From an uncultured Candidatus Saccharibacteria bacterium (GTDB lineage: Bacteria; Patescibacteriota; Minisyncoccia; Phycocordibacterales; CAYRGE01), in contig CAZTCT010000001.1 in the NCBI GenBank assembly GCA_964612415.1, positions 455 to 64,454 on the forward strand: a DNA stretch of 64,000 nucleotides, read 5' to 3'. Below the pieces are notes generated by a model. That model saw only the letters and a list, made by a program, of their open reading frames with translations. It had not been told where the DNA came from and ran no database searches. Within the stretch, counting starts at the first letter, position 1. Every line of letters starts with the position of its first letter. Of this stretch, positions 16,164 through 41,880 are shown piece after piece. Position numbers and translations under genes: made by a program.

Positions 16164-19100
16164 TCATCGCTCTTTAAACGCAACCTTAAACTCACTCCCG
16201 TCTACTTTAACAAGTACCCCGCCTTCAATCTTTCCAAAATCAATACCTGAAAGTGCGGCCACTCTTTGAAATTCGCTCTTATATTTTTCAAATATCTCTT
16301 TTTCGCCTACACCACCGTCAACTAAAAGCCCCACTTTTGCTGAAGGTGTAAGGCCCGCGTCTTTTCTTGCATCCTGTATCTGACGGAGGATATCTCTAAA
16401 TTTCCCTTCCTCTTTTAATTCGGGAGTAATGTGTATATCGAGCGCAGGTTGCGCTACTCCCTCAGCGAATAAAATTTCTTTAACATTCACCTCTTCTCGG
16501 ATAATGGTAAGTAATTGCTCATCTTTAGGAATACTGCCTTTCCCAACCATAAGACTGGCAAGAGGCTGCCGGACCTTTAGCCCAGCTTTCGCACGCGCTT
16601 CAAGCGCCTGTGAGACGATTGCTCGGACTGCGGCCATTTTTTTCACAAGAGCTTGATCTCCTCTCATGCCCTTCGGCCAGGCAGCAAGATGTACGCTTTT
16701 TTGATCTCCTTTCTTGTGTACACTTTGGTACACTTCCTCGGCAATAAATGGCATGAATGGAGCAATAGTCTTTGAAAGTTCAAGAAGTATGTACCTCAAA
16801 GTGGCTTGTACGGCCTTTCTGTCGCTCGTATCAAGCCCTTTGAAGCGCTCGCGAGACCGCCGCACATACCATGTTGAAAGGTCATCAACAAAAAGACCGA
16901 TCGGACGTGCCGCAGCGTCGATCTCGTATGCCTCAAGGCCTTTTTCAACTTCCCTGTGTGTTTGAGCGAGTCGTGAAAGAACCCAGCGGTCAAGGATATG
17001 CTTGCTCTTATTGTGTGGCGCCGTAGTGTCTTTATAGAGCTCATAAAATGAGAGGACATTTGAGAGGCGCAGGATTATTTTTTTATATACATCATCGAGG
17101 CCTGTCTCGGAAAAGCGCAAATCCTCTCCCCTCACAACAGGAGAAGAGACGAGATAATATCGGAGGGCATCTGCACCATATTTATTTATCATCGCTCCCG
17201 GCTCAGGGTAATTCTTCAGCTTCTTACTCATCTTGCGTCCGTCTTCTGCAAGCACAAGACCATTTACCACCACATTTTTGTAGGGAGCCTTCCCAAAAAG
17301 TCCTGTGGCAATTACAAGAAGAGTAAAGAACCACCCTCGTGTCTGATCAAGCCCCTCTGCAATAAACTCAGCAGGAAAATTTTTCTTAAAATCCGCTTTT
17401 CCCTTATATGGATAAGCAAACTGCGCAAATGGCATAGAGCCTGACTCAAACCAGCAATCAAAGACATCTGGGATACGCTTCATGTCTCCTCCGCACTTAC
17501 AACCAAGTTCTATCTCATCAATATATGGCCTGTGAAAATCCACCATATAGTCATCATCGTGTGGAATGGGCGCAAACTTAAGCGATAGAGCTTGTGCAAG
17601 CTCGGGGTATTCGTCATGAGTCTTTTTGAAGGCGGCCATTTCTGCAATGGTTTCTCCATTGCTACCTCTCATCATCATCCACCCAGAGTATTCATGGGTG
17701 ACAAAAAGAAGCGTCTCTCCTTTATGGGTACGTTCCATTTCGTACACAAAATCAAGCGCTCTTTTGCGTACATCAATGAGATGCTCTCCATCAGGAGGTC
17801 GCTTAGTAAACTTCTCCTGCAAATTCGCAAAGAAGTTATGATACTCCTCAACGCTCATTTCATTGAATTTCCCTGTGTTGATCTCGCGCAGACGTGCATC
17901 ATATATGATTGCCTCTTTGGGAATTCCTATCGTCTCCGCCACAAGTTCTGCTGTTTCCTTTGCGCGGGTGATATCAGACGCGTAGATTTTGGTAATGCCT
18001 GCTTTGGCGAGTTTCTTTGCGGTCTTCACTACATCCCTCTTCCCTTTTTCTGTCAGATGATGCGCGTTACGGTTGTAACTGACGATACGTTTTACATTAG
18101 TTTCTGACTGTCCGTGCCGCATCACAAAATATGTGTTGCCTGAGACTTTCGCACTCTTTCTTAATTCTGACAATGAGCTCACGACTTTGCGCTCATTACA
18201 AGTAGAGCACTCCCATACAGGAAACGGTGCTCCCCAAAATCTTGTGCGTGAGATAGACCAATCTCGTGCGCCAGAGAGCCAATTTTTGAAACGCCCGTCT
18301 TTTATATGTTTAGGAACCCAAGAGATCTTTTTATTTTCAGAGAGAAGTTTCTTTTTGAGCTCGGTCACCTTCACAAACCACGACGTGGTCGCATAGTTGA
18401 GCAGCGGCGTATCGCATCTCCAACAATGCGGATATGAGTGAACAATCTTCTCCTTTGAGAAAAGAGTTCCTTTGCCTGCCAAATATTTAATGACCTCAAT
18501 ATCTGTTTCTTGAGGATTTTCTTTTGGTTTTGCCAGCCGTCCTGGAAAATCTTTCACTTCTGACGTGAAATGCCCATCAAAAGATACATGTTGCACAAAA
18601 GGTAATGAGTGTTTCTTGCCCAACTCCATGTCATCTTCTCCAAACGCAGGTGCAATATGAACGACACCAGTACCACTTTCGGTCGTAACGAAATCACCAG
18701 AATATATCTTCCAGCCATTCTCTCTGTTCTCTATATTTGAATTGATGAAATAATCAAAAACTGGCTTGTAAGATTTTCCAACGAGTTCGCTGCTTTTGTA
18801 TTCCTTTTGGATAGTAAATCCTTCCTTGAAAACATGCTCTGCGCGGTCTTTAGCAACGATGTAAGTAGCTTCATCATTGGGAATGCGCGCCTTGATATAA
18901 GTGATGTGCTCACCCACTGCAAGCGCGACATTGCCTGGCAACGTCCATGGCGTAGTCGTCCATGCCAGCACATACGTACCCGGTTCATCTACGAGTTCAA
19001 ATTTTGCCGTTACAGAAATATCAGTGATGTCCTTATACCCATCGGCAACTTCCGTCGCGGAAAGCGTCGTCTCGTCTCGTGGACAGATGAGCATTGATTT

Positions 19101-19649
19101 ATACCCTTTGTAGATAAGCCCCTTTTTATACAACTCGGAGAATGCCCACCAGATAGACTCTGTGTATTCGGCATCCATGGTTTGATAATTATTTTCCATA
19201 TCAACCCACCGCCCCACGCGAGGGATAAATGCTTTCCATTCTTTGTCATAACGGAACACACTGTCTTTGGCAGCTTTATTAAATTTCTCAATCCCATAAT
19301 TCTCAATATCCTTTTTCCCTTTGAAGCCAAGCTCATTTTCTATGAGATTCTCAACTGGCATACCATGACAATCCCACCCCCAGACACGACGTACATACCT
19401 CCCTTTCATGGTCTGATAGCGAGGAATGATATCTTTCACCGTCCCCGGAACTGTGTGCCCATAGTGAGGCAAACCAGTGGCAAATGGAGGACCATCGTAG
19501 AAGACATACGGCTTTTTGCCGCGTGTTTTTGCAAGCGTCTTCTCAAAGATTTTGTTCTCTTCCCAAAAACGGAGGGTCTCTTCCTCCTTACGAGCTGTTT
19601 CAGAAATTTTCCTTCCTTCTTGATTTTTCTCATCAGCAGGGTTGCTCAT
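16164..19649 (-). CDS. ileS: Isoleucyl-tRNA synthetase (type 2) carrying an embedded histidine-phosphatase-like domain.
   Basis: HIGH motif (PHYGHTVPG), editing-domain TTTPWTLPGN, WVPKHIKDGRFKNWL, CWFESGSMPFAQ and KMSKKL. Start chosen at MSNPADEKNQ (19649) to avoid overlap with argS. Residues ~545-750 (nt ~17552..18167) carry RHGQSETN...LTEKGKRD...ASDITRAKETAE...THEYSG. Confidence 0.92.
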   Translation of the reverse strand: MSNPADEKNQEGRKISETARKEEETLRFWEENKIFEKTLAKTRGKKPYVFYDGPPFATGLPHYGHTVPGTVKDIIPRYQTMKGRYVRRVWGWDCHGMPVENLIENELGFKGKKDIENYGIEKFNKAAKDSVFRYDKEWKAFIPRVGRWVDMENNYQTMDAEYTESIWWAFSELYKKGLIYKGYKSMLICPRDETTLSATEVADGYKDITDISVTAKFELVDEPGTYVLAWTTTPWTLPGNVALAVGEHITYIKARIPNDEATYIVAKDRAEHVFKEGFTIQKEYKSSELVGKSYKPVFDYFINSNIENRENGWKIYSGDFVTTESGTGVVHIAPAFGEDDMELGKKHSLPFVQHVSFDGHFTSEVKDFPGRLAKPKENPQETDIEVIKYLAGKGTLFSKEKIVHSYPHCWRCDTPLLNYATTSWFVKVTELKKKLLSENKKISWVPKHIKDGRFKNWLSGARDWSISRTRFWGAPFPVWECSTCNERKVVSSLSELRKSAKVSGNTYFVMRHGQSETNVKRIVSYNRNAHHLTEKGKRDVVKTAKKLAKAGITKIYASDITRAKETAELVAETIGIPKEAIIYDARLREINTGKFNEMSVEEYHNFFANLQEKFTKRPPDGEHLIDVRKRALDFVYEMERTHKGETLLFVTHEYSGWMMMRGSNGETIAEMAAFKKTHDEYPELAQALSLKFAPIPHDDDYMVDFHRPYIDEIELGCKCGGDMKRIPDVFDCWFESGSMPFAQFAYPYKGKADFKKNFPAEFIAEGLDQTRGWFFTLLVIATGLFGKAPYKNVVVNGLVLAEDGRKMSKKLKNYPEPGAMINKYGADALRYYLVSSPVVRGEDLRFSETGLDDVYKKIILRLSNVLSFYELYKDTTAPHNKSKHILDRWVLSRLAQTHREVEKGLEAYEIDAAARPIGLFVDDLSTWYVRRSRERFKGLDTSDRKAVQATLRYILLELSKTIAPFMPFIAEEVYQSVHKKGDQKSVHLAAWPKGMRGDQALVKKMAAVRAIVSQALEARAKAGLKVRQPLASLMVGKGSIPKDEQLLTIIREEVNVKEILFAEGVAQPALDIHITPELKEEGKFRDILRQIQDARKDAGLTPSAKVGLLVDGGVGEKEIFEKYKSEFQRVAALSGIDFGKIEGGVLVKVDGSEFKVAFKER

Positions 19650-19704
19650 AAACAAGTGTTGAATGTATCTATAGTATCTATTTTCTTTTTGTGCGCAAAG
19701 GAGA

Positions 19705-21348
19705 CTACATTTTCTCTGGTGCTGAGATCCCGAGGAGACCGAGGGCTTTTGCGAGTGTATCGCGCGCAACAGAAGCAAGAAGAAGTGCTCCTTTTGCATA
19801 GGTCTCCCCTTCTATAACTCTCACATCTCTATAGAACTGGGAGAACTCGCTGGCAAGTTCATATGCATACGTCGTGAGTTTGTGTACATGATAATCTTTT
19901 GCAATCTCATCTACGACTTCCTTGAATTGCACAATCTTGAATGCGAGTGCGCGCGCAGTAGGTTCATCAAGAATGCTCTCTATAGTTGTTTCATTGGGAC
20001 TAAGCGCCATGGCCTGTTTTTCAATTGAACAAATACGGGCGTGCGCGTATTGCACATAGAATACTGGATTTTTCGCCGAAGTATCCCGGGCAAGGTCAGC
20101 GTCAAAATCCATATGAGTAGAAATCGCCTTCTCAGCAAAAAACCATCTCACCACATCATTGCCGTATTCATTGATAAGGTCTTCAAGTAAAATAACCGTC
20201 CCTGCCCGCTTAGACATTTTTTTGCGTTCTTCTCCATCTTTAAGTCCCACAAGTTGCACGACAAAAATAATCGGCTGGGGCGGATTGTCAGGCCATCCAA
20301 GAATCTTGCCTACCGCATGCATACGTTTTACATGCCCATGATGATCTGCCCCCCAAATATCAATCACTGTATCATCTCCTCGAGAGAACTTTTCCCGATG
20401 ATACGCAATATCAGAAAGAAAATATGTCGCTGTTTTGTCAGAGCGCACAAGGACCCTGTCTTCGTCATCGCCGTATTCGGATGTCTTAAGCCACACCGCA
20501 CCATCTTTCTCGTACACAACTCCTTTCTCTCTAAGATCGGTGAGTGTCTTCTCTGTCACATTTTTCTCCCTTATCTCTTTGTCCTCTGAATACCATCGGT
20601 CAAAATGCACGCCGGCTTTTTGCTCAATGAAATTTTTGTTGTATTCCTGAACCTTTTCTCCAAGAAGAAATCCTGCCTCTGACTCCGTAAGTCCTTCTGT
20701 GTTTACATCAGCCATCATTTCGCTTAGCCGCTCCGTCTTATATTGCTCCCCTTTCCCAAGCGCGGTTTTGCCGAGTTCAATGATCTGATTGCTTTCGCGA
20801 GAGTCATTTATGTAGTACTCGCGCGTAACATCTGCGCCCGTGTATTTGAAAATCCGCGCCAACATATCTCCGTAAAATGCACTGCGCCCATGTCCTATAT
20901 GCAAATCGCCTGTTGGATTCGCAGAAATAAATTCAATATTTATCTTCTCTCCTTCGCGCGAAGAGAGCCCTTCGTCTAGTCCCTCCCGCAAAGATGCGAG
21001 ATCCTGCTCAATCGCCTTTTTGGTAAGTTTAATATTTAAGAACCCAGGACCCGCAACTTCCACACCCTCCAGAAGGTCTTTGAGGTTTGGGTTGTGCTCA
21101 AGTTCACTCTTGAGGCTTTCGGCAAGCTCTTTTGGGCTCTTCCCTGCGTCTTTGGCGCAAGAGAGAGCAACTCCTGACGCATAGTCAGCATGAGGGGTTC
21201 GCGACAATACTTCTGCCTTAGGAGAAACCCCGTATTTTTCCTTTAAAATATGCTCTATTTGAGCGGAAATAGTCTCTTTCACAATAGCGCAATGATAGCA
21301 TGGAAAAGTGGACAAAAAGAAGCCGGCGCACAAGCGCCGGTTCTGCAA
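19705..21348 (-). CDS. argS: Arginyl-tRNA synthetase.
   Basis: HIGH region ANPTGDLHIGHGRSA. 547 aa with class-I architecture and an anticodon-binding C-terminus. The true start may be an alternative codon slightly downstream of 21348. Confidence 0.9.
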   Translation of the reverse strand: MQNRRLCAGFFLSTFPCYHCAIVKETISAQIEHILKEKYGVSPKAEVLSRTPHADYASGVALSCAKDAGKSPKELAESLKSELEHNPNLKDLLEGVEVAGPGFLNIKLTKKAIEQDLASLREGLDEGLSSREGEKINIEFISANPTGDLHIGHGRSAFYGDMLARIFKYTGADVTREYYINDSRESNQIIELGKTALGKGEQYKTERLSEMMADVNTEGLTESEAGFLLGEKVQEYNKNFIEQKAGVHFDRWYSEDKEIREKNVTEKTLTDLREKGVVYEKDGAVWLKTSEYGDDEDRVLVRSDKTATYFLSDIAYHREKFSRGDDTVIDIWGADHHGHVKRMHAVGKILGWPDNPPQPIIFVVQLVGLKDGEERKKMSKRAGTVILLEDLINEYGNDVVRWFFAEKAISTHMDFDADLARDTSAKNPVFYVQYAHARICSIEKQAMALSPNETTIESILDEPTARALAFKIVQFKEVVDEIAKDYHVHKLTTYAYELASEFSQFYRDVRVIEGETYAKGALLLASVARDTLAKALGLLGISAPEKM

Positions 21349-21352
21349 AACA

Positions 21353-22012
21353 CTACAGGCCTAATTCTTCTCGGAGAATTCTGAGGGCCTCTTCTAGCAC
21401 CTCTGCTTGCGAGTTCTCTGCGTTCAGATATCTTGCATTGAACACTTGAGCTGACTTTTTGTACCCTGCCGCAACCCTCTCATGGAAGGCAACGGCTCTC
21501 GCGTCAAAACGAGTGAGGTCTTCGTTTCTTCCTTTTGCTCTCTCCAAACACTTCTTACTGTCACCTGTTAGGAGAAACAGCAAATCCGGACTTACGACAA
21601 CTTTGTCATCCGTAGTACGGGCAATGTTATCAAGAGCCCAAAAAGTGTTCTCAAGATACTCTCTCTCTTCTCCCGCAATTTGATATGCATATGTTGAGGG
21701 CGAGAATCGATCACATAAAATGACCTTGCCACTTTTGACCCCTGGTACAATTACTTTGCGAATATGGTCTGCCCGAGATGCTTCGAACAGGAATATCTGC
21801 GTGAGTACGTCAGGGTCATCTCCTTCTGTCTTGCTGGAAAGCAAGAGGTCTCTAATCTTCTCCGCGGACGGTGTGCCACCAGGTTCTCGCGTAAATATTA
21901 CATCGTGACCCTTTTGTGTAAGTATTTTCCGCAGAGACATAATGAGACTCGTCTTGCCAGTCCCTTCGCCTCCTTCAAACACAATGAATTTGCCTTTTTG
22001 GGAATTCGTCAT
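21353..22012 (-). CDS. tmk: Thymidylate (dTMP) kinase.
   Basis: P-loop FIVFEGGEGTGKTS and the TREPGGT motif. Confidence 0.88.
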   Translation of the reverse strand: MTNSQKGKFIVFEGGEGTGKTSLIMSLRKILTQKGHDVIFTREPGGTPSAEKIRDLLLSSKTEGDDPDVLTQIFLFEASRADHIRKVIVPGVKSGKVILCDRFSPSTYAYQIAGEEREYLENTFWALDNIARTTDDKVVVSPDLLFLLTGDSKKCLERAKGRNEDLTRFDARAVAFHERVAAGYKKSAQVFNARYLNAENSQAEVLEEALRILREELGL

Positions 22013-22082
22013 GGAAGTCTCCTGTGTGAATTAAAGAAACATTGCTTGCCAAAAAGTACCACACTCCCCACAAAAGAAAAAG

Positions 22083-22106
22083 CCCCTCATCTGTACAGAT
22101 GAGGGG
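22083..22106 (-). terminator. Hairpin terminator after the dCTP-deaminase-like gene.
   Basis: Palindrome CCCCTCATCTGTACAGATGAGGGG. In minus-strand sense it is followed by CUUUUUCUUUU. Confidence 0.6.
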
Positions 22107-22132
22107 TGGGTTAGGAGGGGTTCAAATGCTAA

Positions 22133-23266
22133 TTACCCATCCCAAACACTTTCGCGGTCTCTAAAATGCTTTGAGAGTGAGGGCCCAGAGCCAACATAAT
22201 TGGACCCTGCGTCCGCCCCGTAAAGTTTCATGGGGATTTCAGTTGTATGCTCAAACGCCATACGACAGATCCTTTGTCCGTCATATAAACGCTGCGGAAT
22301 ATTGTGTGCTCTTACTTCCAAAACAACACTCGTTCCACGCTCTGCACCAAAACCATTGTCGAAAAACCCCGCGTAGTGTGTTCGATATTCTCCCGACGAT
22401 ACATCGTAGGGAATTATTTCTGCACAGCACGGTGGAGGGATCTTGACACGTTCTTTTGTTGTGAGTAGATAAAACCTTCCTGGCGTTAACACTAATTCCC
22501 CATTGCGAGGACGCTTGATGGGGATCCAAAAATCATCCACATCATAGTGGTCTTTTTTGGAAAGATCGAGCGTCTCTGTTGGGTTGGAACGTGACTCAAA
22601 ACCAACAATGTTTCTGTCGAGATCGATGTGTAAGAAGTAGCTCTTCTCGAAAATATCGATTTCATCCTGCGAGAGTGATTCCCCGCTGTTGTGATAAAGC
22701 ACTCCGTATTTTGAATGTAGCAGTGCCAAGCGATCATTGGGAATTGTGGCGTCCCCTGATCGTACTCGGAATTGTGTCAGGGTCAGCCCCGGTGTAACCG
22801 AAATATTAAAGGAAAGCGGTGTAACTTCAAGATAGAGTGGCCCTTTATATCCCGGGTCAATACGGTCATATTGTGTCTTTGAATCACACAACACACGCAC
22901 GAATGTGTCGGTACGCCCCGTCGAACTCTTGGGGGAAAATCCTGCACAGAATTGAGCGGCGAACTGAAGTCGCTCCTTGAGAGGAATCAGATAGCATGCC
23001 CCTTTCTCAAGAACAGATCCCTCTTCTCGAATGGCAAACTCATAGGATGAGAGTTTTTCGATGAGTTGGGATACGGATTCTCCGGGAGCTGGCATTGCAG
23101 CCGCCTTCATGCGATAGATACGCTCGCCAAGTGCACAGTCAATTGTCGCCATCTGAATGTGAGATTCTGGGATAGCCTCTTTTTCCCACGAGATCATTGG
23201 GCTTTCGCCATGCGTGATTTCTCTCAGATTTTGCATGGGCAAAATACCTAGGGTTAACGCTGACAT
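22133..23266 (-). CDS. Long-form dCTP deaminase family protein (DCD/PF06559-like, dUTPase fold).
   Basis: 377 aa. The C-terminal half reads TPGRFYLLTTKERVKIPPPCCAEIIPYDVSSGEYRTHYAGFFDNGFG...GTSVVLEVRAHN, which fits the dCTP-deaminase/dUTPase jelly-roll pattern. It sits next to tmk and dut. Confidence 0.55.
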   Translation of the reverse strand: MSALTLGILPMQNLREITHGESPMISWEKEAIPESHIQMATIDCALGERIYRMKAAAMPAPGESVSQLIEKLSSYEFAIREEGSVLEKGACYLIPLKERLQFAAQFCAGFSPKSSTGRTDTFVRVLCDSKTQYDRIDPGYKGPLYLEVTPLSFNISVTPGLTLTQFRVRSGDATIPNDRLALLHSKYGVLYHNSGESLSQDEIDIFEKSYFLHIDLDRNIVGFESRSNPTETLDLSKKDHYDVDDFWIPIKRPRNGELVLTPGRFYLLTTKERVKIPPPCCAEIIPYDVSSGEYRTHYAGFFDNGFGAERGTSVVLEVRAHNIPQRLYDGQRICRMAFEHTTEIPMKLYGADAGSNYVGSGPSLSKHFRDRESVWDG

Positions 23267-23348
23267 ATTGCACCTCCTCCTTGTAAAAGTTCAAAGTGAC
23301 TACCCAATTTTTACCATACTTTTTAGGAAAAAAGAAAACTCCCTGTCC

Positions 23349-23376
23349 TTGCCCCCTCTTGCAAAATACCTATAAT
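23349..23376 (+). promoter_or_regulatory. Sigma70-like promoter for the 23433 gene.
   Basis: TTGCCC, 16-nt spacer, then a perfect TATAAT at 23371..23376. A strong SD (AAAAAGGAGG) sits 5-14 nt before the ATG. Confidence 0.4.
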
Positions 23377-23432
23377 GGATCCAGTAATAACAGTTCTTAA
23401 AATCAGTTCAACCATGAAAAAGGAGGCTGGTT

Positions 23433-24806
23433 ATGTCTTTCAGGGCACTCAACCATGTAATACGCCCACTTTCTTATCCGCTCCCTCACAAGGGCATGAT
23501 ATTGGTTTTGGACACAGGGGCACAAATTACACCCGAGGCAGAGGCAATGCTTCAAGCATTGTATTCTCGTTCTATTGAAGAGGTACTCGTACATCTCGAT
23601 GAGATCCAGAAAAAGGGTCCTGAAAAATTCATGTCCACATTCTACGTTGGATACGGACATAAATCGATCGGTGATTGCGGCACTGGTACTATTTTTATCG
23701 AGGGTGTCTCAATGCTTGCTGCGAAAGCAATCCAGGATTGGGCACTTTATTCGGGGCAGGAAGCATCAACAAGGTACATTGATTTCTCAAAGCAGTATTT
23801 TCTAAATCCAATTGGTTCGCAGAAAGCAAATGCATTACTTGAAGACTGGCGCGTGTTTTATCTACATGCTCAAAAGCCACTTCAGACTTTCTTGTGTGAG
23901 CGATTCCCACGCGCTCCTGAAGAAAAGGAGTCTGTGTATGACAAGGCGATCAAGGCAAGGGCGTTCGATATCTTGCGAGGGTTCCTCCCTGCCGGGGCAA
24001 CAACAAAACTGGCTTGGCATACCAATCTTCGTCAAGCAGCTGATAAACTTGCGCTTCTGCGGCATCACCCCTTGGAAGAAGTGCGCATGATAGCTGACGC
24101 GATCGAAGATGCACTCAAGGAAATGTTCCCGAGTTCATTTGGACACAAGCGCTACCAAGAAACAGAAGATTATAATGCATTTTGGATGGGTGAAAAATAC
24201 TACTTTACTAATCCACGCCCGAGTGACTACAAGGTAACAAACTGTGGAATAAATCGCCGGCTCGTGGCGCAATACCAGGATATTTTGGAGCGTCGACCCC
24301 CAAAAACAGAGCTCCCCAAATTCCTGGCGGAATGCGGAACAATGCAACTTGAGTTTACTCTTGATTTTGCATCGTTCCGGGACATACAACGTCACAGAGC
24401 AGTGATACAACGCATGCCATTGGTTTGTCACGACCACGGATTTGAGCCATGGTATCTAAATGAACTTCCTTCAAGGCTTCGAACTGAAGCAGAGCAGTTA
24501 CTGCTTTCCCAAGAAAATGGTCTCCGAACAATGATTCTCCCTCAGAGTTCCAAGGAGGAGGCACAGTATTACACTGCTATGGGTTATCGATTGCCAAATC
24601 GTCTTACTGGCGACTTGCCAGCACTAGTCTATTTGGCGGAGTTGCGCGCAACAAGATTTGTCCATTCAACGCTCCGCAAAAGAGCAATTCAAATAGGGGA
24701 AACCCTTGAACAACTGTTCGGAAAACATGGATTGAAAATTCATTTCGACAAAGATCCTGACCGGTTTGACGTTAAGCGTGGAGAGCACGATATCGTCAAA
24801 GTATGA
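23433..24806 (+). CDS. Hypothetical protein, possibly a divergent flavin-dependent thymidylate synthase (ThyX-like) with a large insertion.
   Basis: 457 aa. The N-terminus MILVLDTGAQITPEAEAMLQALYSRS...GYGHKSIGDC loosely resembles the ThyX N-terminus and HxS motif. A later FRDIQRHRAVIQRM segment resembles the ThyX RHR motif, and LPNRLTGDLPALVYLAELRATRFVHS may match the ThyX C-terminal region. The gene lies inside a tmk/dcd/dut cluster. Confidence 0.3.
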   Translation: MSFRALNHVIRPLSYPLPHKGMILVLDTGAQITPEAEAMLQALYSRSIEEVLVHLDEIQKKGPEKFMSTFYVGYGHKSIGDCGTGTIFIEGVSMLAAKAIQDWALYSGQEASTRYIDFSKQYFLNPIGSQKANALLEDWRVFYLHAQKPLQTFLCERFPRAPEEKESVYDKAIKARAFDILRGFLPAGATTKLAWHTNLRQAADKLALLRHHPLEEVRMIADAIEDALKEMFPSSFGHKRYQETEDYNAFWMGEKYYFTNPRPSDYKVTNCGINRRLVAQYQDILERRPPKTELPKFLAECGTMQLEFTLDFASFRDIQRHRAVIQRMPLVCHDHGFEPWYLNELPSRLRTEAEQLLLSQENGLRTMILPQSSKEEAQYYTAMGYRLPNRLTGDLPALVYLAELRATRFVHSTLRKRAIQIGETLEQLFGKHGLKIHFDKDPDRFDVKRGEHDIVKV

Positions 24807-24818
24807 TCCTTTGAGAAT

Positions 24819-24848
24819 AGCCCTGCTCACAGTACTGTGAGCAGGGCT
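24819..24848. terminator. Bidirectional hairpin terminator between the convergent 23433 gene and dut.
   Basis: AGCCCTGCTCACAG-TACT-CTGTGAGCAGGGCT followed by ATCTTTTATTT. Confidence 0.65.
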
Positions 24849-24853
24849 ATCTT

Positions 24854-25282
24854 TTATTTCCCCGTACTCCCAAATCCCCCCTCTCCTCGCACTGTATTAT
24901 CTAACTCTGCTACTTCCTCAATTTCTGCATGCTCTACTTTTTGAATAAGTAGTTGTGCTACTTTGTGCCCCTTTTCTATCGTGTATTCCTCATTCGAAAT
25001 ATTGGCAATACCTACCATAATCTCTCCGCGATACCCAGAGTCAATCACCCCGCCGAGTGTCTTAAGTCCATTTCTCATAGAAAGCCCGCTCTTATCCCAC
25101 ACAAGCCCCACATACCCCTTGGGGATAGCCATAGCGATACCTGTGGGAACCATAACGCGAGCACCCGGCACAACTGTGACATCTTGTATTGCGTACAAAT
25201 CAAGCCCTGCGTCACCATCATGGGCATAGAAAGGCACTTCTGCGTCTTCAGCAAGCTTTTTAATTTTAAGAGTGATTTTCAT
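24854..25282 (-). CDS. dut: dUTP diphosphatase.
   Basis: MKITLKIKKLAEDAEVPFYAHDGDAGLDLYA...GVIDSGYRGEI...RGEGGFGSTG covers all five dUTPase motifs. Start taken at the internal MKITL codon. Confidence 0.93.
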   Translation of the reverse strand: MKITLKIKKLAEDAEVPFYAHDGDAGLDLYAIQDVTVVPGARVMVPTGIAMAIPKGYVGLVWDKSGLSMRNGLKTLGGVIDSGYRGEIMVGIANISNEEYTIEKGHKVAQLLIQKVEHAEIEEVAELDNTVRGEGGFGSTGK

Positions 25283-25302
25283 ACAGCAATTGTACCCCAA
25301 AC

Positions 25303-35462: not shown

Positions 35463-35954
35463 TTATTGTACTCCTTGAGGCAAATATTGTCTTCCTAGAG
35501 GAAACTCTGTGTCAGAGGCTGTCAAAAGCCATTGTTTAAAATCACCATCCTCACTTTTCCAGCGAGAGGCAAAGTCAATGAGCGTCATTTTGAATTGCGG
35601 ACCGTTCCAAGGATCATTGAGAACTACGTGCTCATCTCCCACATCTACCACGACAGCATAATGCCCCTCATCCGATGAGGGTTCAATAAAGTGCACAATT
35701 GCGGGATACCCGAGCGCGACAAAATATCGAAGCTCATCTGTTGTTGACTCTGTATTCACATACACATATAGCCCATTCTCACGGATTGTATCAATAATTG
35801 GTCCATGCTTTGTGCCTGTGCTCTTTCTTGTATGAAGAATTTGAATGAGATCCTCTTCGCTAAGTATCTTGCCATAAAACCGCAATATCATTTGGACAAC
35901 AGAAGGTCCGCATGAGTACCCTGTATCTTGTTTAAAAAAAGGAACATTGATCAT
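35463..35954 (-). CDS. Stand-alone peptidase C39-like domain protein (papain-like Cys/His/Asp), paralog 1.
   Basis: N-terminal PFFKQDTGYSCGPSVVQMIL has the C39 catalytic Cys context. GHYAVVVDVGDEHVVLNDPW has the His and Asp. No signal peptide and no ABC transporter domain. Confidence 0.7.
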   Translation of the reverse strand: MINVPFFKQDTGYSCGPSVVQMILRFYGKILSEEDLIQILHTRKSTGTKHGPIIDTIRENGLYVYVNTESTTDELRYFVALGYPAIVHFIEPSSDEGHYAVVVDVGDEHVVLNDPWNGPQFKMTLIDFASRWKSEDGDFKQWLLTASDTEFPLGRQYLPQGVQ

Positions 35955-35955
35955 G

Positions 35956-36522
35956 TTAGTGTCCTCCTCCTGAAAAAATTATCGAGCTCGGCCCGGCTTC
36001 AAAATTATAGTCTGCATTATGCATGTTTTGATCCCCTCCCATGCATGTTGCTTTTGTAAGTTGTGGCTGTGGAGTTTCAAACTTATTTATTGAAAGAACA
36101 GCTCTGTACTGATTTTCATTATTCACATCACACGTGGGAGTAGCCTGACACACAGATGTATTCATACAGTGCTCAGGATCATATGCATAAAAATACGTTA
36201 CTCCATCATACAATGGATCCTTCGGGACACGCGGCAAATATGGAGCGAGCGCCGCATCAATATTTCCGCCAACTCCTATTTTTTCTCCATACCCAGGAAC
36301 TCCTCCATATGGGGCAGGAGCCGGCACTTCTCCATCATGATCACTTTGAAAGAGCGCGATAGCAGTTGCAATGGCCTTAATATCAGAGAGCCTTTGCGCA
36401 TCTCGTGCTTTGGCGCGAGCAGCGTTCAGTGACCCAACAATAACGGTTGCCAATACACCGATAATCGCGATGACAATAAGAAGTTCAATAAGCGTAAACC
36501 CTTTTCCTTTTTTTGTATTCAT
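35956..36522 (-). CDS. Type IV pilin/pseudopilin.
   Basis: Class III prepilin signal MNTKKGKG|FTLIELLIVIAIIGVLA, with Gly at -1, Phe at +1 and Glu at +5. Globular C-terminal domain with Cys pairs. Confidence 0.9.
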   Translation of the reverse strand: MNTKKGKGFTLIELLIVIAIIGVLATVIVGSLNAARAKARDAQRLSDIKAIATAIALFQSDHDGEVPAPAPYGGVPGYGEKIGVGGNIDAALAPYLPRVPKDPLYDGVTYFYAYDPEHCMNTSVCQATPTCDVNNENQYRAVLSINKFETPQPQLTKATCMGGDQNMHNADYNFEAGPSSIIFSGGGH

Positions 36523-36563
36523 TTTCCTGCCAGTAAACCGTTAAAATAAGTGTACAGGATATT

Positions 36564-37049
36564 TTACTTCTCATCCACATCAAAAAGTTCACCCTCTATT
36601 GGTTTATTAGAAATGGCCAAAAGCCACTGTTTATGGGGCATGTATTTACTCTGCCATCGCCTCACAAACTCATCCAGTGGAAGTGTAAAGCCGGGACCAA
36701 ACCAAGGATCTTGAAGAACAATCTTGCCAGCGCTTATGTCTACAGCAACAGCGTAGTGTCCCTCATCCTCTTCTGGTTCAAGATAATCAATTATGACTGG
36801 AACTCCTTGTTTAATAAATTTTTTAATCTCCCTTGTTGTAGTATTCTCATTCACATATGTGAAGAAACCATGATGTTGCGCTGTTGTCACAAGCTCATGG
36901 TTAGCAGCGCCTGTTTCCTTGCTTACACTTAACACATGTGAGATCTCCTCTTCTGTAAGCTCGACTCCATAAAATTCAAGTACCATCCTGATAGACGCAA
37001 GGGCACAGGTGTGATCTTTCTCTTGTTTCCGAAATGGTACTGTAATCAT
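36564..37049 (-). CDS. Stand-alone peptidase C39-like domain protein, paralog 2.
   Basis: PFRKQEKDHTCALASIRMVLEFYG...GHYAVAVDISAGKIVLQDPW has the same Cys/His/Asp layout as the 35463 gene, with roughly 40% identity judged by eye. Confidence 0.7.
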   Translation of the reverse strand: MITVPFRKQEKDHTCALASIRMVLEFYGVELTEEEISHVLSVSKETGAANHELVTTAQHHGFFTYVNENTTTREIKKFIKQGVPVIIDYLEPEEDEGHYAVAVDISAGKIVLQDPWFGPGFTLPLDEFVRRWQSKYMPHKQWLLAISNKPIEGELFDVDEK

Positions 37050-37067: not shown

Positions 37068-37976
37068 CTAAAAAATAGACGGGGTGTTGGCTGGCCCAAA
37101 AGACACCAAGAGACTGAATATCATCAAAACAAGGATAGAAAAAAGAAACATTCTTCGTGCCCACTGCCGTTCTTCTGAACCGTTAACCTTTTTAAGGGAA
37201 AGATAAAGCCACCCCACCACAAGCGGAATAATAATGGAAAAATATAGTGTCCCCACATAACCTACAGCAAACAAGAGTGTTGCAAGGGCAGCAAACACAA
37301 TAATGTATAGGCGAATGTGTACTTTTGTATGTGCAATTCCTTTCACGACGGGGAGCACTGGCACCCCAGCCGCTTGGTAATCTCCGAGGCGATAGATGGC
37401 AATGGCATAAGAATGCGGCATCTGCCAAACACATAAAATAAGAAAAAGAAGCAGTGCGCCAAGATCAAAATACCCAGTAACCGCACAGTACCCCGCCACG
37501 GGCGGCACCGCACCAGATACACTCCCAATGAGTGTCCCATAGACTGTCTGTCTCTTCCCCCACATGCTATACACGATCACATAAAAGAATGCTCCGACTG
37601 CGGCGATAAACACTGCGAGCATATTTGTAAAAAAGAAAAGGAGAGAAAACCCGAGCACCCCAAGAACGCCGCCATATACAAGGGCGTGCCGAGGAGGTAT
37701 AAGCCCCGATACAAGTACGCGAGATTTTGTTCTCTCCATGAGCGCATCAATGTCCCTGTCGATGTAATTATTGAAGACACACCCAGCTGCCATTACAAAA
37801 GATACTCCAAAGACTGTGGCAACAAGAAGCCGCAGATCAATGCGCCCTCCCGCAGCAAGCAAGAACCCCGCAAGAATAGTGACGACGTTCCCGTAAATAA
37901 TCCCCGGTTTTACAAGTGAGTAATAATGCTTAAGCAAGATAGTTCTTAATTTAAAATCCGCCTGCCTGATTTTCAA
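37068..37976 (-). CDS. cyoE: Protoheme IX farnesyltransferase (heme O synthase).
   Basis: UbiA-family motifs NNYIDRDIDALMERTKSRVLV, plus 8-9 TM helices. Confidence 0.9.
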   Translation of the reverse strand: MKIRQADFKLRTILLKHYYSLVKPGIIYGNVVTILAGFLLAAGGRIDLRLLVATVFGVSFVMAAGCVFNNYIDRDIDALMERTKSRVLVSGLIPPRHALVYGGVLGVLGFSLLFFFTNMLAVFIAAVGAFFYVIVYSMWGKRQTVYGTLIGSVSGAVPPVAGYCAVTGYFDLGALLLFLILCVWQMPHSYAIAIYRLGDYQAAGVPVLPVVKGIAHTKVHIRLYIIVFAALATLLFAVGYVGTLYFSIIIPLVVGWLYLSLKKVNGSEERQWARRMFLFSILVLMIFSLLVSFGPANTPSIF

Positions 37977-38349
37977 ACTTCATGCTCTCCATGATCGTAT
38001 TCATTTCTTCCTGCGTCATCATCATATTATTGTTGAGGTTATTCATGATCCAGAGAGAGCCCACAACCACCACCCCCACAATAAACACCGTAAAAGAAAA
38101 AACAAGAAGGTTCCATCTTGGTCGAGACTCAGACCTAAGATGCAGGAAAAATATAAGTTGCACAACAAGCTGTGCTAAAGCAAACCCTAATACAGTGACC
38201 AAAAGAACATCTCGAGCTGCAATAGACTTCACCACAAGAAAATACGGTATGAGAGTGAACGCAAGAGAAAGAACGTACCCCCAAACATAGGACCGAAGTG
38301 TTCCCTGTCGTGCTCCATAATTTGTCTGTAAAACTTCAAAATCATTCAT
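37951..38349 (-). CDS. cyoD: Cytochrome o ubiquinol oxidase subunit IV.
   Basis: GSLWIMNNLNNNMMMT closely matches the E. coli CyoD C-terminus. Three TM helices. Confidence 0.85.
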   Translation of the reverse strand: MNDFEVLQTNYGARQGTLRSYVWGYVLSLAFTLIPYFLVVKSIAARDVLLVTVLGFALAQLVVQLIFFLHLRSESRPRWNLLVFSFTVFIVGVVVVGSLWIMNNLNNNMMMTQEEMNTIMESMKFENQAGGF

Positions 38350-38355
38350 ACGTCT

Positions 38356-38958
38356 TTATCCAATAGCGCCCATAAGATACACGATAGTAAAGATGAAGAT
38401 CCACACAATATCCAAAAAATGCCAGAAGAGCCCCCAGCATGTAAGCCTCCTCATCATCGCCGCAGCAAGATCACGCCCCCAGATTTGAATCATAAGAACG
38501 ATCATCCAAATTGACCCAAGTGTCACGTGTAGTCCGTGCGTGCCGACTAAAGTGAAAAAAGCTGACAAAAATCCGCTTCGAGACCACCCGTTCCCTTCGG
38601 AAAAGAAGTGCATGAATTCACTGATCTCAAGCGAGATGAATGAGATCCCAAGCACAAGCGTAGCGGCAAGCCATCCTAATACTTGCCGCTTCTTGTTGTG
38701 GTGTGCTGCAAGAAGAGCAAGGCCTGCCGTAAAGCTACTTGTTAAAAGAATGAGTGTTTCTGTAAGCGCGAAGGGCAAATCAAACAACTCCATTCCTGAA
38801 GGGCCGCCAAATGTATTGTTGCGGAGAACGGCATAAGTTGCAAAAAGGCTCGCGAACAAGACGCAGTCACTCATGATGTACACCCAAAAACCAAAGATGG
38901 TTTTTGAATCTTTTTCTCGTTGTACCGCAAGTTCCTCTTGATGGTTTTCTGTTGCCAT
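38356..38958 (-). CDS. cyoC: Cytochrome o ubiquinol oxidase subunit III.
   Basis: [23 protein letters not shown] matches CyoC. Start taken at MATENHQ, 4 nt after the cyoB stop. Confidence 0.88.
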
Positions 38959-38962
38959 ATAT

Positions 38963-40924
38963 TTATTGTGTAGCAAGCCGAGCTTCTGTGCGCGCAACCT
39001 CTTCTGCGGTAACCACATGTTCTGTGTGTTCATCAAACGATCGTATTACAAAACATACAATAGCAGCCAAAAGTCCAAAGATGGAGAGCCAGGTAATGTG
39101 CCATATCAACCCAAAGCAAAACAGAAAGCCGTAAAAAGCAATGTAAAATCCGACTGGTGTATTTTTGGGAAGATGAATGTCCTCATATTTTGAATGTGGC
39201 GGAATAGGCGTATCCGCATACTTCATGTGCCAAAAGGCATCTCGACTGTACACTCGAGGTATATGTGCGAAGTTATAGTGAGGAGGAGGAGAAGAAATAG
39301 ACCACTCAAGGGTGCGACCATCCCACGGATCTCCAGTTTTGTCTCGATTTCTTCCTCTATTTTTTATACTCACAATCAATTGGGCTAGCTGCACCAACGC
39401 ACCTCCTGCAAGAATGGCCGCGCCGACCGCAGCAACGATTAAAAGCGGGTTCCACGCAAAAGTATCATAATGATCAAGTCGTCGTGTCATGCCCATAAGA
39501 CCAAGTGCGTACAAAGGCATAAACGCAACAAAAAATCCGATGATCCAATGCCAGAAAGCGATGATGCCAAGCCGCTCGTTTAATTTAAATCCAAAGATTT
39601 TCGGAAACCAATAAGTAAGGCCTGCAAAATACCCAAAAAGAACACCTCCGATGATCATATTGTGAAAGTGCGCAACTAAGAATAAGCTGTTGTGAAGTTG
39701 GAAATCGGCTCCTGGTACCGAAAGAAGCACCCCTGTCATACCGCCCAAAGTAAACGTTGCAACAAACCCCAAGAACCAGTGCATTGGTGATGTAAAAGAT
39801 ACACGTCCCCTAAACATGGTAAAAAGCCAATTGAAAATCTTCACTCCCGTCGGAATAGCAATTACCATTGTAGCTATCGCGAAGAACGCATTCACATTCG
39901 GACCTGCCCCCATCGTGTAGAAGTGATGGAGCCACACAATAAAAGAGAGCACCGTTATCGCCATAGTTGCAACGACCATGGAAGTATACCCAAACAATCT
40001 CTTCTTTGAGAAAGTAGCCACTACTTCAGAAAAGACCCCAAACGCAGGAAGGATAAGAATATATACCTCTGGATGCCCCCACGCCCAAATAAGATTGACA
40101 TACATCATAAGATTCCCGCCAAACCCAGCCGTAAAGAAATGCATATCCATGAAGCGGTCAAGGAAAAGCATGGCGAGCGTCGCAGTAAGGATAGGAAACG
40201 CAAAGATAACAAGCGCCATGCTTCCGAGCACAGTCCACGCGAACACAGGCATGCGCATGAGCGTCATTCCTGGGGCACGCATTTTAAAAATCGTGACAAG
40301 AAAGTTTATTCCTGAGAAAAGTGAGCCGAGACCAGCTATCTGCAAACTCCAAATATAATAATCAACCCCTACCCCAGGACTGTACGCGATTTCAGAGAGT
40401 GGTGGGTATGCAAGCCACCCTGTTGCGGCAAATTCTCCCGCGACCAAAGAAAGGTTGAGTAGTACCGCTCCCATAGCAAAGAGCCAAAACGATAAAGAGT
40501 TTAGGAATGGAAATGCAACATCGCGTGCCCCAAGTTGCAGGGGCAATACCCAATTGATAAGTCCAAACATAATGGGCATCGCAACAAAAAATATCATGAT
40601 GACCCCATGCGCGGTGATCACCTGGTCGAAGTGGTCAGCAGAGAGAAAGCCTTGTGCGTCCCCTACTGCCATTGCCTGCTGAGCCCGCATCATCGCCGCA
40701 TCAACAAACCCACGCGCGAGCATGATCACCGCGACAACGATGTACATGACACCGATTTTTTTATGATCAAGAGAAGTCACCCACTCATTCCAGAACCACT
40801 TCCACCGCTTAAAGTAAGTGAGGAGTCCCGCGAACAAAAGCGCTCCAAAGACTACAGTGAGCTGTGCCATTGTTTCTACTACCCCATGGTGGATAAATGC
40901 ATCGATTGTTAGGTTGCCAAACAT
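38963..40924 (-). CDS. cyoB: Cytochrome o ubiquinol oxidase subunit I (heme-copper oxidase catalytic subunit).
   Basis: 653 aa, 12+ TM helices, with the conserved His ligands ([14 protein letters not shown]...HHFYTMG...[11 protein letters not shown]). Confidence 0.95.
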
Positions 40925-40956
40925 GTGTCTCTTTTGTTTAACTCATTATACAGAAA

Positions 40957-41880
40957 TTAGCGCACAGAGATGTGCTCACCCATGTCCATATTCATGTCCT
41001 CCATTGATCTTTGTTCCATCCCAGGCATCATAAACTTCAGCATGATCCGCTCAAAAAGATTACCTTCAACAGAGGAATAGAAAGTGACGGGATGATTTAT
41101 CGTTCGTTTCGCAAGCTCCGTATAAGTATCCCAGTCAAGCTTAAGACCAGAACTTTTCACATCATCAATCCATGAACGAAAACCTTCTTGGGTAACAACT
41201 CGCGTGAGAAAATTCATCCCAGAAAATCCCGCCCCGCTAAAGTTTGCCGAATTGCCCCAGTACGACCCAAGCTCGTCAGCAATAATATGAAGCTTTGTTT
41301 CCATCCCTGGCATTGCGTAAATCTGCCCGGAGAGTTGTGGCACCCAAAAGGAATTCATCGGCGCGTCTGCAGAAAGTTCAAAATTTATTGCTGTATCAAC
41401 AGGGATCTCAAGATAATTTACTGAGGCGATGCCTTGCTCTGGATAGATGAACAGCCACTTCCAATCAAGTGCTACGACCTGCACAGTGATTGGCTTTCCT
41501 TCTTCATGTAGGGGCCTGTATGGATCTAGCTCATGGGTTGTTCTCCAAGTAACAACCGCAAGTATAGAGATAAGGACAAAAGGAACAGCCCACCAGATAA
41601 GCTCATCTATCTTGCTGTGCTCCCAGTCAGGAGAATATTTTGCTTTTTCATTGCTGGCCCGATATGTCCACGCAAAAAAACCAGTAATCAAAAATACCGG
41701 GATTACTACGGTGAGCATCAAGAATGTTGCAAAAACGATGAGGTTTCGCTCCTCATCTGCAATAAGGCCCTTTGGGTCAAGAACAGAAATCCCCGCAACG
41801 CTTGAGAGAAAAAGAAAAAGGCCAATGGCACCAAAGAAAAGCAGAGCCACACGCAATACGGTCTTGTGATTTTGCTTCAT
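40957..41880 (-). CDS. cyoA: Cytochrome o ubiquinol oxidase subunit II, quinol-oxidase type with no CuA site.
   Basis: ALDWKWLFIYPEQGIASVN...MNSFWVPQLSGQIYAMPGMETKLH...FSGAGFSGMNF aligns with E. coli CyoA. No CxxxC...H CuA motif. Confidence 0.9.
   Translation of the reverse strand: MKQNHKTVLRVALLFFGAIGLFLFLSSVAGISVLDPKGLIADEERNLIVFATFLMLTVVIPVFLITGFFAWTYRASNEKAKYSPDWEHSKIDELIWWAVPFVLISILAVVTWRTTHELDPYRPLHEEGKPITVQVVALDWKWLFIYPEQGIASVNYLEIPVDTAINFELSADAPMNSFWVPQLSGQIYAMPGMETKLHIIADELGSYWGNSANFSGAGFSGMNFLTRVVTQEGFRSWIDDVKSSGLKLDWDTYTELAKRTINHPVTFYSSVEGNLFERIMLKFMMPGMEQRSMEDMNMDMGEHISVR

What the first reader, a model, noticed from the sequence alone, without database searches (positions are those of the whole stretch)
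21353..25282. dTTP-synthesis island with a long-form dCTP-deaminase-like gene and a divergent 457-aa candidate ThyX
tmk, a 377-aa dCTP-deaminase-family protein (the C-terminal half has the dUTPase/dCTP-deaminase jelly-roll signature) and dut are clustered. Between them, on the opposite strand, sits a 457-aa protein with no obvious family. It does carry a QRHR segment and an N-terminal GH-S segment reminiscent of the ThyX RHR and HxS motifs, but the two are separated by ~240 aa. If this is ThyX, it has a large insertion. If not, the cluster lacks a visible thymidylate synthase, and this protein is the best candidate for the missing step or for a new dUMP-modifying enzyme. It has a promoter with a perfect TATAAT at 23371 and a strong SD.
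Basis: partly seen in the sequence, partly recalled or inferred. Interest (0 to 1): 0.55.

Follow-up and report, generated by a model that had tools for sequence, protein, structure and literature searches.

The report
Tandem-duplicated ThyX in dTTP gene cluster
The unassigned 457-aa protein is a flavin-dependent thymidylate synthase (ThyX) made of two fused ThyX domains that split the catalytic motif between them, so this is an ordinary, complete dTTP-synthesis gene cluster built around an already annotated but biochemically untested long form of ThyX.

Summary
The 457-aa protein does have a family. Residues 40-234 match Pfam Thy1 at 66.9 bits (cutoff 24.8). It has more than 4,000 homologues of about 450 aa, mostly in Patescibacteria/CPR, that databases already name "FAD-dependent thymidylate synthase". 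There is no large insertion. The C-terminal half is a second ThyX fold that sequence profiles barely detect; its AlphaFold model alone gives 143 Foldseek matches (E ≤ 0.001), and all 50 listed are ThyX structures. The ThyX motif is split between the halves. The N-domain keeps the His53, Ser88, Arg90 and Tyr91 equivalents but has D-W-A in place of RHR. The C-domain keeps the Arg74, RHR and Arg174 equivalents but has no Ser loop. This pattern holds in 94 relatives at 32-53% identity. I infer a homodimer that acts as a pseudo-tetramer with two active sites instead of four. The gene sits near tmk, dut or dcd in 45 of 80 related loci, and the window holds no thyA. A domain-duplicated, uncharacterised ThyX was noted in the literature in 2009. 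Verdict: a new member of a known kind, of modest interest.

The parts
21353..22012 (-). tmk, dTMP kinase (219 aa)
   Evidence: PF02223 E 9.8e-35; TIGR00041 at 127.7 bits, cutoff 83.25.
21323..21340 (-). Terminator-like GC hairpin just after the tmk stop codon
   Evidence: 7 GC pairs followed by a T-rich tail. It lies between the tmk stop and the argS start as called on L001.
22083..22106 (-). Terminator-like hairpin after the dcd stop codon
   Evidence: 10-pair stem followed by a T run.
22133..23266 (-). Long-form dCTP deaminase (377 aa, DCD_N plus DCD_C)
   Evidence: NF005734 at 336.8 bits, cutoff 283. PF06559, PF22569 and PF22769 match, the last in 2 stretches. PDB 2R9Q matches at E 1.7e-74.
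23349..23376 (+). Promoter-like site for thyX: TTGCCC, 16-nt spacer, TATAAT
   Evidence: 10 of 12 consensus matches; sequence read. This is a consensus match only; function is not shown.
23420..23426 (+). Shine-Dalgarno AAGGAGG, 6 nt before the ATG
   Evidence: Read directly from the sequence.
23433..24152 (+). thyX N-terminal ThyX domain (residues 1-240). It carries S45 (Tm S30), H76 (H53), S107/Q109/E110/S112/R114/Y115 (S83/N85/E86/S88/R90/Y91), R182 (R147) and N198/R200 (N163/R165). D102-W103-A104 stands where RHR should be.
   Evidence: Pfam Thy1 at 66.9 bits over residues 40-234. hhalign against canonical ThyX gives 84% probability, E 7e-6, 200 columns. Conservation is shown.
24153..24806 (+). 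thyX C-terminal cryptic ThyX domain (residues 241-457 plus stop codon). It carries R316 (Tm R74), R320-H321-R322 (R78-H79-R80), R405 (R174), H411 and the tail residues R449-G450. It has P295 in place of His53 and no Ser88/Arg90/Tyr91 loop.
   Evidence: An AlphaFold model of this half alone (pLDDT 81.8) gives 143 Foldseek PDB matches at E <= 1e-3; all 50 listed are ThyX, with TM-scores of about 0.5-0.6. hhalign against canonical ThyX aligns 159 columns in register at E 1.2e-3. R316, R320, R405 and H411 are kept in 95/95 diverse sequences and R322 in 94/95.
24817..24850 (.). Palindromic hairpin (15-pair stem) between the convergent thyX and dut genes; a likely bidirectional terminator
   Evidence: It was reported on the + strand with a T-rich tail. 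Its use by dut on the - strand is inferred from the palindrome.
24854..25300 (-). dut, trimeric-type dUTPase (148 aa from the TTG; 142 aa if it starts at the ATG at 25282)
   Evidence: PF00692 E 2.2e-35; TIGR00576 at 161 bits, cutoff 102.55.

Best explanation
The 3.9-kb region encodes the complete route from dCTP to dTDP. The long Dcd converts dCTP to dUTP, Dut converts dUTP to dUMP, ThyX converts dUMP to dTMP, and Tmk converts dTMP to dTDP. The 457-aa protein is the thymidylate synthase. It is a flavin-dependent (ThyX-type) enzyme whose chain holds two ThyX folds derived from an ancient tandem duplication, and each fold has lost a complementary part of the active site. The N-domain supplies the active-site loop (S112, R114, Y115), the folate/flavin-stacking His (H76), S45, R182 and N198/R200. 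The C-domain supplies the RHR helix (R316, R320, H321, R322) and the dUMP-activating Arg (R405). In canonical homotetrameric ThyX each site is built from three subunits, with the RHR helix and Arg174 coming from one subunit and the Ser88 loop from another. I therefore infer that two chains assemble into a pseudo-tetramer with two complete active sites rather than four, each formed by one C-domain and N-domain residues. The chemistry is expected to be the standard ThyX one: FAD is reduced by NAD(P)H, methylene passes from CH2H4folate through the flavin to C5 of dUMP, and the flavin then reduces the product. Shown here: family membership, the two ThyX folds, the family-wide split of the motif, and the gene neighbourhood. 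Inferred: the quaternary structure, the number of active sites, and the activity.
For: Pfam Thy1 scores above its cutoff on residues 40-234. More than 4,393 homologues exist, and NCBI and JGI name them FAD-dependent thymidylate synthase / ThyX. The full-length model (pLDDT 85.4, pTM 0.87) has only ThyX structures among the 50 listed Foldseek PDB matches. So does the model of the C-half alone. Residues were mapped by profile alignment to T. maritima ThyX. The split is constant in 94 cluster representatives at 32-53% identity. S112, R114, R316, R320, R405 and H411 are kept in 95/95, R322 in 94/95 and H76 in 91/95, and no Arg appears among the residues listed at position 102. Pfam finds two Thy1 stretches in 4 of 10 divergent members. 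In PBCV-1 ThyX, Gln75 and Arg182 come from monomer A and Ser88/Gln89 from monomer B (PMC3498832). His53 comes from a third monomer (PMC11940539). Arg174 activates dUMP, and S88/R90/Y91 are kinetically important (PMC8316439). In 80 species-level loci, tmk lies within 6 kb in 27, dut in 31 and the long dcd in 14, and 45 loci have at least one of them. No thyA or second thyX was found in the window. In L076 a remnant of the ThyA C-terminus sits directly after a long thyX, which fits replacement of thyA by this gene.
Against: No member of this long family has, to my knowledge, been tested biochemically; the one paper I found calls the duplicated form uncharacterised (PMC3224940). The protein fails the NCBIfam thyX equivalog cutoff (24.2 against 87.9 bits), and neither domain has a contiguous RHRx7S motif. 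Sequence evidence that the C-half is homologous to ThyX is weak: hhalign gives 19% probability (E 1.2e-3), and N against C gives E 0.03. That claim therefore rests mainly on a predicted structure. I could not inspect model coordinates or predict the dimer, so the two-site assembly is inference. Only 64 kb of the genome was searched for thyA or thyX.
Confidence: 0.8

Rival explanations
1. It is a single ThyX domain interrupted by an insertion of about 240 aa between the HxS and RHR motifs.
For: GHKS and QRHR are 244 residues apart. Pfam reports only one Thy1 stretch in this protein.
Against: The single Pfam stretch covers profile positions 17-191 of 191 continuously within residues 40-234. That span includes the position where RHR belongs, which reads D-W-A. 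The QRHR lies in a separately folding region of 217 aa, and all 50 listed Foldseek PDB matches to that region are ThyX chains. Secondary-structure order repeats between the two halves.
Confidence: 0.03
2. It is a ThyX-derived enzyme with a different reaction or substrate, for example methylation of UMP or dCMP, or a hydroxymethylating dUMP modifier, and the true thymidylate synthase is elsewhere in the genome.
For: It falls below the thyX equivalog cutoff and its motif architecture is rearranged. ThyX-like enzymes with other substrates exist (PolB of polyoxin biosynthesis; from my own knowledge, not tested here). Most of the genome was not available to search.
Against: All mapped canonical dUMP, flavin and folate contact residues are present once per chain and are nearly invariant. 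The family is very widely distributed: 386 species-level genomes with Patescibacteria-type loci, in a phylum of small genomes (from my own knowledge). It is linked to tmk, dut and dcd, the suppliers and consumer of dUMP and dTMP. No secondary-metabolite or phage DNA-modification genes are nearby. The ThyA remnant next to a long thyX in L076 points to functional replacement.
Confidence: 0.1
3. It is a catalytically dead or regulatory ThyX-like pseudoenzyme.
For: Each domain on its own lacks part of the signature motif.
Against: The losses are exactly complementary, and the retained catalytic residues are invariant across 32-53% identity. That is the pattern of purifying selection on a composite active site, not of decay.
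Confidence: 0.03

Closest known systems
Canonical homotetrameric ThyX / FDTS (Thermotoga maritima TM0449, PDB 1O26; PBCV-1 A674R, 2CFA/4FZB; M. tuberculosis, 2AF6)
   Same: Both halves have the same fold. The N-half matches Pfam Thy1. The same catalytic residues are present: equivalents of H53, R74, R78-H79-R80, E86, S88, R90, Y91, R147, R165 and R174. The same role in the dUMP-to-dTMP step is expected.
   Different: There are two domains per chain, about 450 aa rather than about 220. The RHRx7S motif is split between the domains. It scores below the TIGR02170 cutoff. It is predicted to be a dimer with two active sites rather than a tetramer with four (inferred).
Domain-duplicated ThyX of Chloroflexi (noted by Valas and Bourne 2009, PMC3224940)
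   Same: [quoted passage not shown] That is the same architecture as found here.
   Different: The paper gives no sequences or motif analysis, so I could not test whether the Chloroflexi proteins belong to the same split-motif family. The named relatives I retrieved are from Patescibacteria, Alphaproteobacteria (Asticcacaulis, Magnetovibrio) and Thermoleophilia.
[quoted passage not shown] 2004 PNAS, cited; paper not held)
   Same: The principle is the same: different subunits contribute different active-site residues, so complementary defects can still give one working site.
   Different: That was an in vitro mixing experiment with mutants. Here the complementary arrangement is fixed by evolution within one polypeptide. 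My description of that paper rests on its title and on my own knowledge.
Thermus thermophilus Thy1 with an extra C-terminal domain (PDB 6J61)
   Same: It is a ThyX with additional C-terminal sequence, and it appears among the Foldseek matches.
   Different: Its chain is only about 240 residues in the match list, far shorter than this 457-aa protein, so it cannot hold two full ThyX folds. What its extra domain is was not examined here.
Long-form dCTP deaminase (Agrobacterium 2R9Q; NCBIfam NF005734)
   Same: The 377-aa neighbour is a full-length member of this family (E 1.7e-74; 336.8 bits against a cutoff of 283).
   Different: Nothing notable. It is an ordinary member.

Membership tests
ThyX / Thy1 (PF02511), flavin-dependent thymidylate synthase | Match to the Pfam Thy1 profile above its gathering score | tested here: met
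   66.9 bits against a cutoff of 24.8; residues 40-234 cover profile positions 17-191 of 191. Ten divergent relatives also pass.
ThyX / Thy1 (PF02511), flavin-dependent thymidylate synthase | ThyX three-dimensional fold | tested here: met
   This is a predicted structure only. All 50 listed Foldseek PDB matches to the full-length model and to the C-half model are ThyX.
ThyX / Thy1 (PF02511), flavin-dependent thymidylate synthase | Contiguous ThyX signature RHRx7S (RHRxxSxxxxSxR) within one domain | tested here: not met
   The N-domain has D102-W103-A104 followed by S107..S112.R114. The C-domain has R320-H321-R322 followed by AVIQRMPL, with no Ser loop. The motif is present only as a composite of the two domains.
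ThyX / Thy1 (PF02511), flavin-dependent thymidylate synthase | NCBIfam TIGR02170 thyX equivalog cutoff | tested here: not met
   24.2 bits against a cutoff of 87.9.
ThyX / Thy1 (PF02511), flavin-dependent thymidylate synthase | A full set of catalytic and ligand-binding residues (Tm H53, R74, R78, H79, R80, E86, S88, R90, Y91, R147, R165, R174) | tested here: met
   Each is present once per chain and is conserved in the family: H76, E110, S112, R114, Y115, R182 and R200 in the N-domain; R316, R320, H321, R322 and R405 in the C-domain.
ThyX / Thy1 (PF02511), flavin-dependent thymidylate synthase | [quoted passage not shown] | not testable with these tools
   No multimer prediction or model coordinates were available. 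The pseudo-tetramer made of two chains is inferred.
ThyX / Thy1 (PF02511), flavin-dependent thymidylate synthase | FAD binding and NAD(P)H- and CH2H4folate-dependent conversion of dUMP to dTMP | not testable with these tools
   This needs biochemistry or genetic complementation.
ThyA (PF00303) thymidylate synthase | Sequence match to ThyA | tested here: not met
   tblastn with E. coli ThyA finds nothing in the window. No PF00303 match appears for the 457-aa protein or for any scanned ORF of 150 aa or more.
Long-form dCTP deaminase (NF005734 / PRK07559) | Full-length match above the equivalog cutoff, with DCD_N plus DCD_C architecture | tested here: met
   336.8 bits against 283; PF06559 plus PF22569; PDB 2R9Q at E 1.7e-74.
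Trimeric dUTPase (PF00692 / TIGR00576) and dTMP kinase (TIGR00041) | Match above the curated cutoffs | tested here: met
   dut scores 161 bits against 102.55; tmk scores 127.7 bits against 83.25.

The most novel reading that the evidence does not exclude
The long ThyX family is a naturally fixed single-chain hetero-pseudodimer. After a tandem duplication, the two ThyX domains lost complementary halves of the active site, so the enzyme works as a dimer with exactly two composite sites, half the number per ThyX domain seen in canonical ThyX. The second domain has diverged so far that sequence profiles, including Pfam on this protein, do not detect it. I found no description of this split in the papers available here.
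Probability: 0.6. Interest if true: 0.45.

Novelty: new member of a known kind. Interest (0 to 1): 0.3.

Why it matters
For genome annotation, this settles that the cluster has its thymidylate synthase and nothing in dTTP synthesis is missing. It also explains why the thyX equivalog model and the classical RHRx7S motif filter miss a family present in hundreds of Patescibacteria species and some Alphaproteobacteria and Actinobacteria. Surveys that use those criteria will wrongly score such genomes as lacking thymidylate synthase. For enzymology, a natural single-chain ThyX in which the RHR helix and Arg174 sit on one domain and the Ser88/Tyr91 loop and His53 on the other would be a ready-made asymmetric system. 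It could be used to dissect the three-subunit active site of a recognised antibacterial target. None of this is a new kind of system.

Tried and rejected
- **PDB sequence searches.** phmmer with the single protein found nothing relevant. A full-length profile found only C. glutamicum ThyX, weakly (E 0.003), through the N-half. The C-half profile found no ThyX.
- **hhalign with the narrow alignment (60-66% identity).** N against C aligned only 11 columns. C against canonical ThyX gave a spurious 16-column match. The comparison became informative only with the 94 diverse representatives.
- **Home-made canonical ThyX HMM against C-halves.** It gave only weak hits, the best at i-E 0.03. All but one of the 14 were in the same register.
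- **Finding the source genome.** An exact-DNA search of genome contigs found nothing. The organism is therefore known only as a Parcubacteria/Paceibacteria-like bacterium, with nusG 83% and dcd 63% identical to a Yonathbacteria MAG (L022). A genome-wide thyA/thyX check was not possible.
- **Chlamydia ThyX.** Literature searches did not tell me whether Chlamydia ThyX (about 529 aa, from memory) has the same architecture. I make no claim about it.
- **Other checks.** By eye, the dcd-thyX intergenic region shows no NrdR-box-like palindrome. No Rfam family falls inside the finding's region.
- **Rejected readings.** The large-insertion reading and the pseudoenzyme reading were considered and rejected, for the reasons given under the rival explanations.


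Full report
**Observation.** The region holds four ORFs exactly as described.
- tmk: 21353-22012(-), 219 aa.
- A 377-aa dCTP-deaminase-family gene: 22133-23266(-).
- A 457-aa gene on the opposite strand: 23433-24806(+).
- dut: 24854-25300(-), or 25282 if translation starts at the ATG.

tmk, dcd and dut pass curated thresholds: TIGR00041 at 127.7 bits against 83.25, NF005734 at 336.8 against 283, and TIGR00576 at 161 against 102.55. The long Dcd has a solved relative, 2R9Q (E 1.7e-74). The promoter-like TTGCCC-16-TATAAT (23349-23376) and AAGGAGG 6 nt before the ATG are present. Promoter-like matches are not clearly enriched in the region (9 against 5.1 +/- 2.2). Hairpins with T-rich tails follow tmk and dcd. 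A 15-pair palindrome (24817-24850) lies between the convergent thyX and dut genes.

**The 457-aa protein has a family.** Pfam Thy1 matches residues 40-234 at 66.9 bits (cutoff 24.8) and covers profile positions 17-191 of 191 without interruption. The stricter NCBIfam thyX equivalog is not reached (24.2 against 87.9 bits). A database search returns more than 4,393 homologues. The best 120 are 428-501 aa long and 59-66% identical. They come from Uhrbacteria, Nomurabacteria, Yonathbacteria, Colwellbacteria and other Parcubacteria, and NCBI and JGI already name many of them "FAD-dependent thymidylate synthase" or "thymidylate synthase ThyX". 386 stretches of the species-representative genome collection (one genome per species) encode a relative. 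More divergent members occur in Asticcacaulis, Magnetovibrio and Thermoleophilia.

**It is a duplication, not an insertion.**
- The full-length AlphaFold model is confident (pLDDT 85.4, pTM 0.87), and its secondary-structure order repeats between residues ~20-235 and ~262-435. All 50 listed Foldseek PDB matches are ThyX structures.
- I modelled residues 241-457 alone from an alignment of C-halves (pLDDT 81.8). Foldseek returned 143 PDB matches at E <= 1e-3. All 50 listed are ThyX chains, with TM-scores of about 0.5-0.6.
- Sequence methods barely see this second domain. A profile search of the PDB finds nothing, and narrow-profile hhalign fails.
- With 94 diverse relatives, hhalign aligns the C-half to canonical ThyX over 159 columns (E 1.2e-3, probability 19%) in the expected register. 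The N-half aligns over 200 columns (E 7e-6, probability 84%).
- Pfam reports two Thy1 stretches in 4 of 10 divergent members.
- A C-half profile searched against 1.84 billion cluster representatives finds 998 proteins. In those of about 430-550 aa the matched region lies in the C-terminal half, and the shorter hits look like fragments.

**The motif is split between the domains.** Residues were mapped onto T. maritima ThyX numbering.
- The N-domain keeps S45 (S30), H76 (H53), S107/Q109/E110/S112/R114/Y115 (S83/N85/E86/S88/R90/Y91), R182 (R147) and N198/R200 (N163/R165). It has K98 and D102-W103-A104 in place of R74 and R78-H79-R80.
- The C-domain keeps R316 (R74), R320-H321-R322 (RHR) and R405 (R174). 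It has P295 in place of His53, Y379 in place of R147, and AVIQRMPL where the Ser88/Arg90/Tyr91 loop should be.
- The pattern holds in 94 cluster representatives that are only 32-53% identical to the window protein, counted with the window protein as 95 sequences. S112, R114, R316, R320, R405 and H411 are kept in 95/95, R322 in 94/95 and H76 in 91/95. No Arg appears among the residues listed at position 102. The N-domain's R174 equivalent (R210) is kept in only 37/95.

- In PBCV-1 ThyX, Gln75 and Arg182 (the Tm R174 equivalent) come from monomer A, and Ser88/Gln89 come from monomer B.
- In T. maritima ThyX, His53 comes from a third monomer and R78 faces flavin N1/C2=O. R174 activates dUMP, and S88, R90 and Y91 assist methylene transfer.

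The residues kept by the C-domain are the "monomer A" set. Those kept by the N-domain are the "monomer B" and third-monomer sets. I therefore infer that two chains form a pseudo-tetramer in which only the C(A-role) + N + N' sites are complete, giving two sites instead of four. The reciprocal sites are doubly degenerate. Two of the most conserved segments, YGHKSIGDCG (72-82) and the R449-G450 tail, have pLDDT below 50 in the apo monomer model. They are candidates for ligand- or partner-induced ordering (inference).

**Context.** In the 80 related loci, tmk lies within 6 kb of the long thyX in 27, dut in 31 and the long dcd in 14. 45 loci have at least one of them and 20 have two. The nusG-rplK block is nearby in 44-48. 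With the gene products assigned above, the window cluster encodes dCTP -> dUTP -> dUMP -> dTMP -> dTDP. No ThyA or canonical ThyX is detectable in the window by tblastn or by Pfam scans of the ORFs of 150 aa or more. In a Dojkabacteria locus (L076), a 92-aa ORF matching only the C-terminal ~60 residues of ThyA lies immediately after the long thyX. This suggests a thyA displaced in place.

**Comparison with what is known, and novelty.** The gene is a member of an already annotated family. [quoted passage not shown] I found no paper describing the complementary motif split or any biochemistry for the long form, though the library is incomplete. The appropriate label is "new member of a known kind". 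The most novel defensible reading is the fixed half-of-sites pseudo-heterodimer.

Noticed in passing
window 16164-19799 (-): The isoleucyl-tRNA synthetase carries a complete histidine-phosphatase (PGAM-like, PF00300) domain at residues 558-725, between two parts of the catalytic tRNA-synt_1 domain (E 1.2e-32). The same architecture was called independently on contig L001.
   Followed up: partly
window 37068-41880 (-): A heme-copper oxidase operon sits in a Patescibacteria-like genome: subunit II with a COX_ARM motif, subunit I (COX1, E 9e-146), subunit III, and a UbiA-family gene that is probably heme O synthase. Members of this group are usually described as fermentative (the last point is from my own knowledge).
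   Followed up: no
window 22133-23266 (-): Like the ThyX next to it, the long Dcd is a two-domain form (DCD_N plus DCD_C; Pfam DCD matches two stretches). Its motifs also look divided. A KSSTGR segment (the canonical Ser/Arg motif, from my own knowledge) is in the N-half, and the FFDNGFG...VLEV segment with the catalytic-Glu position is in the C-half.
   Followed up: partly
L076 7309-7587 (+), and 8531-9052 (+): In a Dojkabacteria MAG, a 92-aa ORF matches only the last ~60 residues of ThyA (43% identity to E. coli ThyA) and lies 10 nt after the stop of a long thyX. It looks like a remnant of a displaced thyA. About 1 kb downstream, a 173-aa ORF resembles a RibD_C/DHFR-like reductase by eye.
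   Followed up: partly
window 51475-51927 (-): A 150-aa ORF matches only the first ~74 positions of the histidine-phosphatase profile (PF00300, E 1e-7). It may be a truncated or divergent paralogue of the domain inserted in IleRS.
   Followed up: no
window 35463-37049 (-): Two small Peptidase_C39-like ORFs (35463-35954 and 36564-37049) flank a gene with a type IV pilin N-terminal methylation motif (35956-36522). A PilM-like gene lies at 48772-49887.
   Followed up: no
loci L011, L013, L018, L028, L029, L064, L073: Several species-representative MAGs labelled Gammaproteobacteria, Bdellovibrionales, Burkholderiales or Nanoarchaeia carry the Patescibacteria-type long thyX at 56-64% identity. Three of them (L028, L064, L073) also have the nusG-rplK neighbourhood. 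These taxonomic labels, or the binning behind them, are probably wrong.
   Followed up: no
window 23646-23678 and 24777-24803 (thyX residues 72-82 and 449-457): Two of the most conserved segments of the long ThyX (YGHKSIGDCG and the RG..DI tail) are the only internal or terminal stretches with pLDDT below 50 in an otherwise confident model. The tail resembles the canonical ThyX C-terminal K-G-D-I-L motif.
   Followed up: partly
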